Below, one piece after another: positions 5,964-6,176 of a stretch of DNA of 57,336 nt; within the stretch, counting starts at the first letter, position 1, and every line of letters begins with the position of its first letter. The notes under the pieces were generated by a model. It did no database searches and was not told the origin of the DNA. It worked only from the letters and a program-made list of their open reading frames with translations. A program made the translations under genes and the position numbers. Source of the stretch: a virus (taxonomy: Duplodnaviria; Caudoviricetes); the IMG/VR virus record IMGVR_UViG_3300030331_003845, positions 1 to 57,336 of that record; one strand, 5' to 3'.

Positions 5964-6132
5964 GATTTTTAATAAGTGCGGTGAGCAAATCATAATAAAA
6001 CAACCTCATATGGTGTGAGTTCTCTGGATCCTTATATTCAAGAAGGAGGTCGTTCATGAACCTAGTTTTTTCTAGGCCGTCCATTTTTTCTACTGATTTA
6101 AGATTTAATAGTTCGTCAAATAACATCTGCAT
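5953..6132 (-). CDS. 59-aa hypothetical protein (not in ORF track)
   Basis: MQMLFDELLNLKSVEKMDGLEKTRFMNDLL...LIKNHGH; overlaps the next start codon. Confidence 0.6.
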   Translation of the reverse strand: MQMLFDELLNLKSVEKMDGLEKTRFMNDLLLEYKDPENSHHMRLFYYDLLTALIKNHGH

Positions 6133-6176
6133 AGCAACCAGCTAAGGAAAGATATGGATGTGGAAGCTGGCTACTA
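6132..6176 (-). ncRNA. Intergenic stem-loop whose loop is antisense to 16300-16310 and 16359-16378
   Basis: UAGUAGCCAGCU / AGCUGGUUGCUA 12-bp stem with two G-U pairs valid only on the minus strand; 21-nt loop UCCACAUCCAUAUCUUUCCUU. Confidence 0.65.

What the first reader, a model, noticed from the sequence alone, without database searches (positions are those of the whole stretch)
6132..6176. One hairpin loop complementary to the starts of both divergent replication units 10 kb away
Seen: the whole gap between two minus-strand genes is a 12-bp stem whose two G-U pairs work only on the transcribed strand, with loop UCCACAUCCAUAUCUUUCCUU. Positions 6147-6165 GAAAGATATGGATGTGGAA match 16359-16378 GAAAGATCATGGATGTGGAA (19 nt plus one extra C), which spans the SNF2 helicase AUG. 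The same loop pairs 11/11 with AAGAUAUGGAU, which spans the AUG of the 16305 gene heading the SSB-primase-UvrD-PolA operon. Inference: an mRNA-embedded or processed antisense RNA acting as a single switch for the whole replication module. With the 4950-5060 and 5101-5145 elements it suggests a phage riboregulatory network that I do not recognise as described. Alternative: the shared word is a protein operator, though that would not explain its display in a strand-specific RNA loop.
Basis: partly seen in the sequence, partly recalled or inferred. Interest (0 to 1): 0.85.

Follow-up and report, generated by a model that had tools for sequence, protein, structure and literature searches.

The report
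Conserved phage hairpin with anti-start-codon loop
A small RNA hairpin between two genes of an uncultured SAR11-type marine phage is conserved across many relatives, and its large loop can base-pair with the start regions of the two divergent genes that head the phage's DNA-replication module, so it may be an RNA switch for replication, though no experiment shows this yet.

Summary
A 16-bp stem with a 21-nt loop at window 6128-6180 (minus strand) fills the gap between two small genes. It folds well only on the transcribed strand (-23.6 against -9.9 kcal/mol). The loop matches the SNF2 helicase start (12+7 nt with one bulge) and the divergent 16305 gene start (11 nt).

The hairpin is a genuine conserved RNA structure. 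It sits at the same place in relatives from 16 sequence groups, with entirely different stem sequences and a conserved loop motif. The opposite-strand ORF is a shadow.

Evidence that the loop is selected to pair with the two starts is moderate:
- All 36 distinct loop/target triples keep 7-12 nt of complementarity over the start codons.
- Loops fit their own group's targets better than other groups' (p 0.003, 0.06; combined 0.0015).
- Several changes are coordinated between loop and target.

Against it:
- In three of five other complete genomes the two starts are 8-9-mers like dozens of other sites.
- Some groups carry uncompensated mismatches.
- No data show a processed RNA.

Best reading (about 0.5): an mRNA-embedded or processed anti-start-region RNA, closest in logic to P4 CI and P1 C4 RNAs. 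Main rival: a local translational-coupling or protein operator hairpin.

The parts
6128..6180 (-). RNA hairpin. 5' arm 6180-6165, loop 6164-6144 (UCCACAUCCAUAUCUUUCCUU), 3' arm 6143-6128.
   Evidence: Fold -23.6 kcal/mol, z -4.85; + strand only -9.9. Stem covariation over 43 sequences: 95.8% of cells paired, 4 pairs changed on both sides, 0 of 500 shuffles as good. The covariance model finds it in distant relatives.
6174..6419 (-). Upstream 81-aa gene of unknown function. Its UAG stop (6176-6174) lies inside the 5' arm of the stem.
   Evidence: ORF list; tblastn homologues in relatives. In 22 of 28 distinct hairpins an upstream reading frame open for 84-119 codons ends at a stop -6 to +4 nt from the stem's 5' end. 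No Pfam or PHROG hit.
5953..6132 (-). Downstream 59-aa gene (57 aa from the second AUG at 6126). The first AUG is paired in the 3' arm.
   Evidence: ORF list. The first AUG is replaced in some relatives, while the second AUG 6 nt downstream is invariant in the 43 aligned sequences. A downstream ORF starts within -10 to +7 nt of the stem end in 28 of 28 distinct hairpins.
16359..16378 (+). T1: start region of the SNF2-type helicase gene (16371-17789), complementary to the loop. 12 nt ATGGATGTGGAA plus 7 nt GAAAGAT across one bulged C.
   Evidence: (-26.6 kcal/mol, best non-self site). Helicase identity from phrog_62.
16300..16310 (-). T2: start region of the DUF7307 gene (15763-16305) that heads the minus-strand replication genes. 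11 nt AAGAUAUGGAU complementary to the loop.
   Evidence: Pfam DUF7307 at 5.6e-34.
16306..16370 (.). 65-bp divergent intergenic region with predicted interleaved promoters. T2: TTGCGT-16-TATTGT. T1: TTGAAA-17-TAGAAA. Both leaders would be very short or absent.
   Evidence: Inference from conserved blocks in the alignments. The consensus scan tool did not list these sites. One metatranscriptome contig ends at 16310, which is a weak hint only.

Best explanation
The element is a conserved intercistronic RNA hairpin with two layers of function.

Layer 1 (well supported, local). The stem pairs the upstream gene's stop codon with the downstream gene's start region. The downstream 57-59-aa gene can therefore be translated only when the stem is opened, most simply by ribosomes terminating on the upstream gene.

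Layer 2 (the finding, moderately supported). The large single-stranded loop is an 'anti-start-region' sequence. Its 5' half is antisense to the first 8-12 nt of the SNF2 helicase mRNA. Its 3' half is antisense to the start codon, and in most groups the Shine-Dalgarno region, of the divergent DUF7307 gene that heads the replication genes.

Displayed on the mRNA or on a processed fragment, the loop would pair with these two start regions and block ribosome binding. This would shut down both arms of the replication module together once the downstream small-gene block is transcribed.

Shown: the structure, its strand specificity, its conservation, the complementarity and partial co-variation.

Inferred: trans action, repression, processing, timing, and the leaderless or short-leader nature of the targets.
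For: Structure:
- 16-bp stem at -23.6 kcal/mol, z -4.85; the opposite strand folds to -9.9.
- 43 aligned sequences give 95.8% paired cells and 4 pairs with changes on both sides, with 0 of 500 shuffles as good. Many G-U pairs are valid only on this strand.
- Relatives have unrelated stem sequences at the same syntenic spot.

Loop under selection and not coding:
- The loop motif is kept in all groups.
- The opposite-strand ORF from the loop ATG varies from 7 to 93 codons.

Complementarity:
- In 36 of 36 distinct triples (44 records) the loop has 8-12 nt (WC+GU) against T1 and 7-11 nt against T2. The stretch covers or abuts the start codon in most; in 4 of the 36 the best T2 stretch lies on the Shine-Dalgarno region, starting 10-11 nt upstream of the AUG.
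- Window: T1 is the best non-self duplex genome-wide. T1 and T2 are 2 of 3 11-mers and the top 2 of 135 start contexts.
- In complete genome G007, T2 is the only 11-mer. In G030, T1 is the top start context.

Co-variation:
- Three SNF2 start variants (AUGUGGAAA, GGAUAUGGC, AUGGAAUGGA) go with loops CCACAUC/CCAUAUC, CCAUAUCC and UCCAUUCCAU.
- Own-group against permuted loops over 16 groups: dG T1 616 of 200,000, T2 11,784 of 200,000, sum 305 of 200,000. The earlier 6-clade test gave 1, 149 and 2 of 720.
- In loops of form AUC-N-AUAUC, N=U goes with T2 codon 3 AUA. N=G goes with AUC or AUU (G-U). This holds in 7 of 7 distinct groups. It includes L128 and L134, whose 180-aa proteins are identical.
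- C-to-U loop changes keep pairing through G-U.

Local layer: stop and start codons flank or enter the stem in 22 of 28 and 28 of 28 distinct hairpins.
Against: - Genome-wide scans of 5 other complete genomes: duplex-energy ranks of T1 and T2 are 67/56, 2/23, 40/71, 25/74 and 72/70 among non-overlapping sites.
- In G067, G066 and G069 the T1/T2 matches are 8-9-mers, alongside 16, 27 and 15 longer or equal sites. Other gene starts with a GGAAAAG-type Shine-Dalgarno match equally well.
- With Watson-Crick runs only, the own-against-permuted test is not significant: 12,237, 33,584 and 10,937 of 200,000.
- Uncompensated cases exist. One group has SNF2 start AUGUCGAAA, which breaks the loop pairing. 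In groups N, F, K and L the base 5' of CCAU does not match T2 codon 2.
- In clade C the invariant 3' loop part GUCUUUCC has no partner in T1 or T2.
- If my promoter reading is right, the 7-nt upstream part of the window's T1 match lies in the -10 region and is not transcribed.
- There is no evidence of a small RNA: only contigs were available, and none covers 6128-6180.
- The element is absent from the 50%-identity clade and from cultured HTVC023P.
- Ribosomes terminating at the stop inside the stem would melt the hairpin on translated mRNA.
Confidence: 0.5

Rival explanations
1. Purely local device. The hairpin is a translational-coupling or operator structure for the downstream 57-59-aa gene, possibly bound by a phage or host RNA-binding protein that reads the conserved loop. 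Complementarity to the two replication-gene starts would be a passive by-product. The loop is a low-complexity pyrimidine/AU motif containing CAU, and the targets are conserved start regions containing AUGGA.
For: - Stop codon in the 5' arm and start codon in or next to the 3' arm across groups.
- The first AUG and a GGUGG-like stretch are sequestered in the stem.
- The 3' loop part (A/G)UCUUU(U)CC is nearly invariant even where T1 and T2 offer no partner, as in clade C.
- In 3 of 5 other complete genomes T1 and T2 are no better than many other sites.
- Watson-Crick-only permutation tests are not significant.
Against: - It does not explain the window's 12+7 and 11-nt matches falling on exactly the two divergent start codons.
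- It does not explain the matched loop and SNF2-start variants in clades A/B, C and E.
- It does not explain the N-to-wobble agreement in 7 of 7 groups.
- No RNA-binding family was found in the neighbouring small proteins.
- A coupling hairpin needs no conserved 21-29-nt loop.
Confidence: 0.27
2. DNA-level element. The shared word (hexamer repeats GATRTG-GATRTG) is an operator or iteron for a DNA-binding regulator or replication initiator. It would act at both divergent promoters and at a third site that happens to lie in the hairpin.
For: - The loop complement, T1 and T2 all contain GATRTGGAW. The 9-mer occurs 8 times in the window against 2.15 expected, with 0 of 100 shuffles reaching 8.
- The T1 and T2 sites lie at the predicted +1 regions of interleaved promoters. 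This is my reading.
Against: - 4 of the 8 copies are the sites the pattern was derived from. The other 4 lie inside long ORFs.
- The third site is displayed in a loop closed by a stem with G-U pairs valid only in RNA of one strand.
- T1 and T2 use different, only partly overlapping halves of the loop.
- C-to-U loop changes that keep G-U pairing, and agreement at a synonymous Ile codon, are expected for RNA pairing and not for protein-DNA recognition.
Confidence: 0.08
3. General anti-start-region loop with many targets or a sponge role. The loop pairs weakly with any start region of the type GGAAAAGAUAUGG, and T1 and T2 are merely two of several.
For: - In G067 the best non-self site genome-wide is another gene's start region, a 15-nt WC+GU stretch at -21.8 kcal/mol.
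- Other Shine-Dalgarno-rich starts rank with T1 and T2 in G066, G069 and G030.
Against: - In the window the third-best start context has only 8 nt.
- The extra sites are not shown to be conserved. I did not test their orthologues.
Confidence: 0.1
4. Chance. The hairpin is real, but its relation to the two starts is coincidence picked out after the fact.
For: 12-mer and 11-mer matches somewhere in a genome of this size and composition are common: 112 and 425 of 1000 simulated genomes. AAGATATGGAT with up to 1 mismatch is not enriched.
Against: The location of both matches on adjacent divergent start codons, the extra 7-mer (the single 12+7 case), persistence through sequence change in 16 groups, and the permutation result.
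Confidence: 0.05

Closest known systems
Satellite phage P4 CI RNA (immunity factor)
   Same: It is a phage RNA cut out of a longer transcript. A single-stranded region is antisense to two separate target sites, and it controls the phage's own replication genes. I saw this in a passage of PMC4825925. Stem-loop display is recalled, not read.
   Different: P4 targets (seqA, seqC) flank CI on the same untranslated leader, and pairing causes premature transcription termination in a lysogen. Here the targets are about 10 kb away, one on the other strand. They are start codons of coding mRNAs, and the RNA sits between translated genes of a presumably lytic phage. No Rfam family matched the window.
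P1/P7 C4 antisense RNA (immI operon)
   Same: An antisense RNA encoded in the same operon as its non-overlapping target. It is needed to block expression of the downstream icd/ant genes. I saw this in passages of PMC8198154. Loop-target co-variation defining P1/P7 specificity is recalled from Citron and Schuster 1990, which I did not read.
   Different: C4 acts on a target a short way downstream in its own transcript. It is made by RNase P processing (recalled) and belongs to an Rfam family that did not match here. There is one target region, not two divergent genes.
Translational operator and coupling hairpins of phages (MS2 replicase operator; T4 gene 32/43/regA systems)
   Same: A hairpin that contains or abuts the start codon of the downstream cistron, with translation dependent on opening or on a bound factor. 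This is established knowledge, recalled. The stop and start geometry is conserved here.
   Different: Those hairpins have small loops read by a known protein and act only locally. Here the loop is 21-29 nt, no protein partner is known, and it carries long-range complementarity.
Cis-antisense phage RNAs (lambda OOP, P22 sar)
   Same: Phage RNAs that silence phage genes by pairing at or near start regions (recalled).
   Different: They are transcribed from the opposite strand of their target and are fully complementary. Here regulator and targets are unlinked loci with 8-19 nt of complementarity.

Membership tests
Rfam-curated phage antisense RNAs (C4, P4 CI/IsrK-type) and any other Rfam family | Match to the family covariance model at gathering score | tested here: not met
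   cmscan of the whole window, both strands, 4227 families: 0 matches.
Trans-acting or long-range antisense RNA regulator (functional class) | Single-stranded region complementary to the target start region, conserved across relatives | tested here: met
   36 of 36 distinct triples keep 8-12 nt (T1) and 7-11 nt (T2) of WC+GU complementarity. In most it lies at the start codon; in 4 of the 36 the best T2 stretch is on the Shine-Dalgarno region, 10-11 nt upstream of the AUG.
Trans-acting or long-range antisense RNA regulator (functional class) | Compensatory co-variation between regulator and target | tested here: inconclusive
   Energy-based permutation p 0.003 (T1), 0.06 (T2), 0.0015 (sum); Watson-Crick-run tests not significant. 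7 of 7 groups agree at one loop/codon-3 position. Uncompensated groups exist.
Trans-acting or long-range antisense RNA regulator (functional class) | Existence of the RNA species and an effect on target expression | not testable with these tools
   Only assembled metatranscriptome contigs were available and none covers the hairpin. There is no cultured phage with the element: HTVC023P lacks it.
Intrinsic (Rho-independent) terminator | G+C-rich stem with a small loop, followed by a U run | tested here: not met
   The loop is 21 nt and the stem is followed by AUGCAGAUGUUAU. It is not listed among terminator-like sites on the minus strand.
Translational coupling or operator hairpin | Upstream stop and downstream start enclosed in or abutting the stem | tested here: met
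   Upstream stop -6 to +4 nt from the stem's 5' end in 22 of 28 distinct hairpins. Downstream start -10 to +7 nt from the 3' end in 28 of 28.
Translational coupling or operator hairpin | Specific protein that binds the loop | not testable with these tools
   Neighbouring small proteins have no Pfam or PHROG family. The Atlas gave only unnamed viral clusters for the 141-aa protein.
Protein-coding start on the opposite strand (ORF 6154-6435) | ORF conserved in relatives | tested here: not met
   The ORF from the loop ATG is 7-93 codons in the relatives, and only 7-9 in six near-clade sequences. Its third codon positions coincide with those of the minus-strand gene (my arithmetic).
RNase III processing site (T7-type) | Long, about 20 bp or more, often bulged duplex; cleavage products | tested here: inconclusive
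   The stem is 12-17 uninterrupted bp. Cleavage cannot be tested here.

The most novel reading that the evidence does not exclude
One intercistronic hairpin in the most abundant group of SAR11 phages acts as a timer. Its loop is a composite antisense to the 5' ends of two divergently transcribed, leaderless or near-leaderless mRNAs (SNF2 helicase and the DUF7307-led replication operon). When the distal small-gene block is expressed, both arms of the replication module are translationally silenced by a single RNA. The same stem gates translation of the next gene. This would be the first riboregulator described in pelagiphages, and an unusual case of an mRNA-embedded trans-acting anti-start-codon loop with two unlinked targets.
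Probability: 0.35. Interest if true: 0.8.

Novelty: new variant of a known kind. Interest (0 to 1): 0.62.

Why it matters
[quoted passage not shown] HTVC027P, a member, has no RNA polymerase and depends on host RNAP throughout, with a mosaic arrangement of temporal classes whose control is unexplained (passages).

A conserved RNA that couples a distal gene block to the start regions of the replication module would give a concrete, testable mechanism for temporal control in these phages. It would add a lytic marine example to the very few phage antisense RNAs that regulate unlinked phage genes.

Even if the long-range pairing is not functional, the hairpin is a clean, strongly co-varying new structured RNA element. 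No Rfam family matched the window. My four full-text searches found nothing on it.

Tried and rejected
- Opposite-strand gene starting in the loop: rejected. The ORF is not conserved.
- Terminator: rejected. There is no U run and the loop is 21 nt.
- Local pseudoknot between the loop and 50 nt of either flank: best runs are 5-9 nt at inconsistent places, so there is no support.
- tRNA/tmRNA and Rfam: none in the window. No tRNA in L167-L169.
- General start-region motif AGATATGG: only 7 copies in the window, and only the 16305 copy is at a gene start.
- Other large-loop hairpins in the window: a list was produced, and nothing comparable lies in an intergenic position.
- Search for the element in the 50%-identity clade by antisense scanning of the loci (noisy) and by folding 900 nt upstream of the p141 homologue: not found. 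HTVC023P gaps fold into no large-loop hairpin.
- blastn of 5200-7000 against cultured phages: no match.
- Metatranscriptomes: 4 RNA runs from 3 studies were laid as contigs.
  - Pieces cover 6225-6495 and parts of 15235-16481. None covers the hairpin.
  - One contig ends at 16310, which is my predicted T2 transcription start.
  - Contigs cannot show ends or strands, so this is a hint at most and counts neither for nor against.
- The consensus promoter scan did not list the promoters I read in 16306-16370.
- Function of neighbouring proteins: no family found.
- Supplements are closed. Table S3 of PMC12753301 (temporal classes of HTVC027P genes) could bear on timing, but I could not see it.
- Literature:
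  - PMC12753301, PMC8198154 and PMC4825925: I saw passages through 'find'.
  - PMC9599517: six terms (SNF2, replication module, promoter, hairpin, noncoding, intergenic) were not found in its text.
  - Searches for pelagiphage + antisense RNA, for phage-encoded antisense/kissing/start-region/helicase terms and for phage-encoded sRNA + lytic phage gave nothing describing this element.
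Full report
WHAT THE WINDOW IS. The window is a whole IMG/VR virus record of 57,336 bases, estimated 95% complete. Its only DNA-level relatives among cultured phages are Pelagibacter phages HTVC023P and HTVC027P, at the helicase gene. 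No tRNA and no Rfam family was found.
- 16371-17789 (+) is a helicase of phrog_62.
- 13408-14979 (-) is a primase, 11835-13535 (-) a helicase, and 9781-11661 (-) a DNA polymerase.
- The gene at 16305 is DUF7307 (Pam3 gp33-like) and the next is Pam3 gp34-like. Neither is a recognisable SSB.

THE OBSERVATION. It holds.
- On the minus strand the RNA between the 81-aa gene (6174-6419) and the 59-aa gene (5953-6132) folds into 16 uninterrupted pairs, 6180-6165 with 6143-6128.
- These pairs close a 21-nt loop, UCCACAUCCAUAUCUUUCCUU. Energy is -23.6 kcal/mol, z -4.85.
- Three pairs are G-U. The + strand reaches only -9.9 kcal/mol, z +0.40.
- The upstream UAG and the downstream first AUG are inside the stem.
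- The 12-mer ATGGATGTGGAA occurs only at 6154 and 16367. The 11-mer AAGATATGGAT occurs exactly at 6149 (+) and 16300 (-).

Taken alone such matches are not rare. 112 of 1000 simulated genomes give a 12-mer, and 425 of 1000 give an 11-mer or longer. Their placement is what is unusual:
- The SNF2 start is the best non-self duplex for the loop among 28,648 windows (-26.6 kcal/mol).
- Two of the three 11-nt matches in the genome are the two divergent start codons.
- Among 135 candidate start contexts they are the top two, at 11 and 11 against 8 for the next.

THE HAIRPIN IS A REAL, CONSERVED RNA STRUCTURE.
- A search with the neighbouring 141-aa protein returned 71 loci. Of these, 68 aligned through the hairpin and gave 43 distinct sequences including the window.
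- On that alignment the 16 pairs are 95.8% paired, and 4 pairs change on both sides. No shuffle of 500 reaches this, and slid controls drop to 28-45% paired.
- A covariance model and syntenic searches then found the element in more distant relatives, with completely different stems and the same loop theme.
- 67 of the 80 listed pattern-matched viral contigs (of 98 matching stretches) fold into such a hairpin.
- The stem is better on the gene-sense strand in relatives too.
- The geometry is kept. The upstream stop lies -6 to +4 nt from the stem's 5' end in 22 of 28 distinct hairpins; the other six are clade E, where no long upstream frame was found. A 57-75-aa ORF starts -10 to +7 nt from the 3' end in 28 of 28.
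- The + strand ORF 6154-6435 that starts in the loop is a shadow. Its length in relatives ranges from 7 to 93 codons.
- The element was not found in the clade with about 50% identity or in HTVC023P.

IS THE LOOP TIED TO THE TWO STARTS? I assembled loop, SNF2 start (T1) and DUF7307-gene start (T2) from 44 records. These gave 36 distinct triples in 16 groups. Seven more records were added by a pattern search.

For:
- Every triple keeps 8-12 nt (T1) and 7-11 nt (T2) of WC+GU complementarity. It covers or abuts the AUG in most; in 4 of 36 the best T2 stretch lies on the Shine-Dalgarno region.
- The loop reads as a composite. Its 5' half is antisense to T1 and its 3' half antisense to T2, including T2's Shine-Dalgarno in the groups that have one.
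- The three different SNF2 N-terminal codings go with three matching loop versions.
- Loops fit their own group's targets better than permuted ones: T1 616, T2 11,784 and sum 305 of 200,000. The earlier six-clade test gave 1, 149 and 2 of 720.
- At one loop position the base agrees with the synonymous third base of T2's Ile codon in 7 of 7 groups. This includes two records with identical 180-aa proteins. My rough estimate of chance agreement is about 0.015, assuming independent groups and equal use of the three Ile codons.
- Several C-to-U loop changes keep pairing through G-U, as expected for RNA.

Against:
- In five other complete genomes the loop's own T1 and T2 rank 2nd to 74th by duplex energy.
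- By Watson-Crick runs they stand out only in G007 (T2, the sole 11-mer) and G030 (T1, one of six 11-mers). In G067, G066 and G069 they are 8-9-mers among dozens.
- Among start contexts they stay near the top but share it with other Shine-Dalgarno-rich starts.
- Watson-Crick-only permutation tests are not significant.
- One group has a SNF2 start that interrupts the pairing. Several groups mismatch at T2 codon 2.
- In clade C the invariant 3' part of the loop has no partner in T1 or T2.

TARGET TRANSCRIPTS (INFERENCE).
- The 60-73-bp divergent spacer keeps two interleaved promoter-like blocks in all groups (my reading). For the window these are TTGCGT-16-TATTGT towards T2 and TTGAAA-17-TAGAAA towards T1.
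- This predicts a leaderless SNF2 mRNA and a T2 leader of about 5 nt in clades A-C. In the other groups the T2 leader would be longer and carry a Shine-Dalgarno.
- The loop would then pair with the extreme 5' ends. However, the 7-nt upstream half of the window's T1 match would fall in the -10 box and be untranscribed.
- The scan tool did not list these promoters.
- One metatranscriptome contig ends at 16310. This is not evidence of a start.

MECHANISM.
- Most likely (about 0.5), the hairpin both gates translation of the downstream small gene and displays an anti-start-region loop. That loop pairs with the two replication-module mRNAs, from the mRNA or from a processed fragment, to block initiation.
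- The main rival (about 0.27) keeps only the local role, with the loop read by an unknown protein.
- A DNA operator (about 0.08) fits the over-represented GATRTGGAW word. It does not fit the strand-specific stem or the RNA-type substitutions.
- A multi-target reading (about 0.10) and pure chance (about 0.05) remain.

COMPARISON WITH KNOWN SYSTEMS.
- The closest logic is P4 CI RNA. It is processed from a transcript, is antisense to two sites, and controls P4's replication genes by termination (passage of PMC4825925).
- P1 C4 RNA is also close: an antisense RNA in the operon whose downstream genes it blocks (passages of PMC8198154).
- This element matches no Rfam model. It sits between translated genes, and its putative targets are start codons of two unlinked, divergent genes about 10 kb away.
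- It is therefore not a member of those families. It may work like them.
- Papers on HTVC023P-type phages that I could search mention no hairpin, promoter or antisense RNA. My other searches found no description.

VERDICT. This is a new structured RNA element and a plausible new variant of phage antisense control. Interest 0.62.

Noticed in passing
window 4686-5239 (5027-5054 +, 5140-5121 -): An ORF-poor stretch of about 550 nt. It holds a 12-bp G+C-rich stem followed by a T run on the + strand, which looks like an intrinsic terminator for + strand transcripts, and a weaker hairpin on the minus strand. Both strands fold better than shuffles (z about -3).
   Followed up: partly
window 15763-16305 (-) and 14982-15761 (-): The first two genes of the minus-strand replication block are DUF7307 (Pam3 gp33-like, 5.6e-34) and Pam3 gp34-like (3.5e-64). 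They are not an identifiable SSB.
   Followed up: yes
window 16306-16370: The -35 boxes of the two predicted divergent promoters are adjacent or interleaved, so each lies in the other's spacer. This predicts mutually exclusive RNA polymerase binding and leaderless or 5-nt-leader mRNAs. The arrangement is conserved in all groups inspected by eye.
   Followed up: partly
window 13762, 14737, 34401, 56089 (all minus strand): Four further copies of GATRTGGAW lie inside long ORFs. The total is 8 copies against 2.15 expected. The 56089 copy sits in the loop of a weak 10-bp hairpin (56114-56072) inside a 778-aa ORF, and would be complementary to the main loop.
   Followed up: partly
L167 about 786-1060 and L169 about 886-1105 (clade E relatives): Very stable structured segments (-30 to -35 kcal/mol per 80 nt) lie 200-500 nt upstream of the hairpin, in a region that replaces the 81-aa gene. 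No tRNA was found.
   Followed up: partly
window 7853-7882 (+) and ORFs 7888-8634 (+): The best promoter-like site of the region (11 of 12 matches) heads a run of small + strand ORFs. This run would interrupt the minus-strand gene block between the replication genes and the hairpin's gene block, so the hairpin may not be on the same transcript as T2.
   Followed up: no
G067 (L260-L263), minus strand about 51540-51575 of the concatenated record: In this complete relative the best non-self partner of its own loop is the start region of another gene (SD-AGAUAUGGG; 15 nt WC+GU, -21.8 kcal/mol). It is a possible extra target.
   Followed up: no
MN698239.1 (HTVC023P) 9451-9536: The cultured relative has a 12-bp hairpin with a 7-nt loop in an intergenic gap upstream of its p141 homologue gp19. 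It has no large-loop hairpin.
   Followed up: partly
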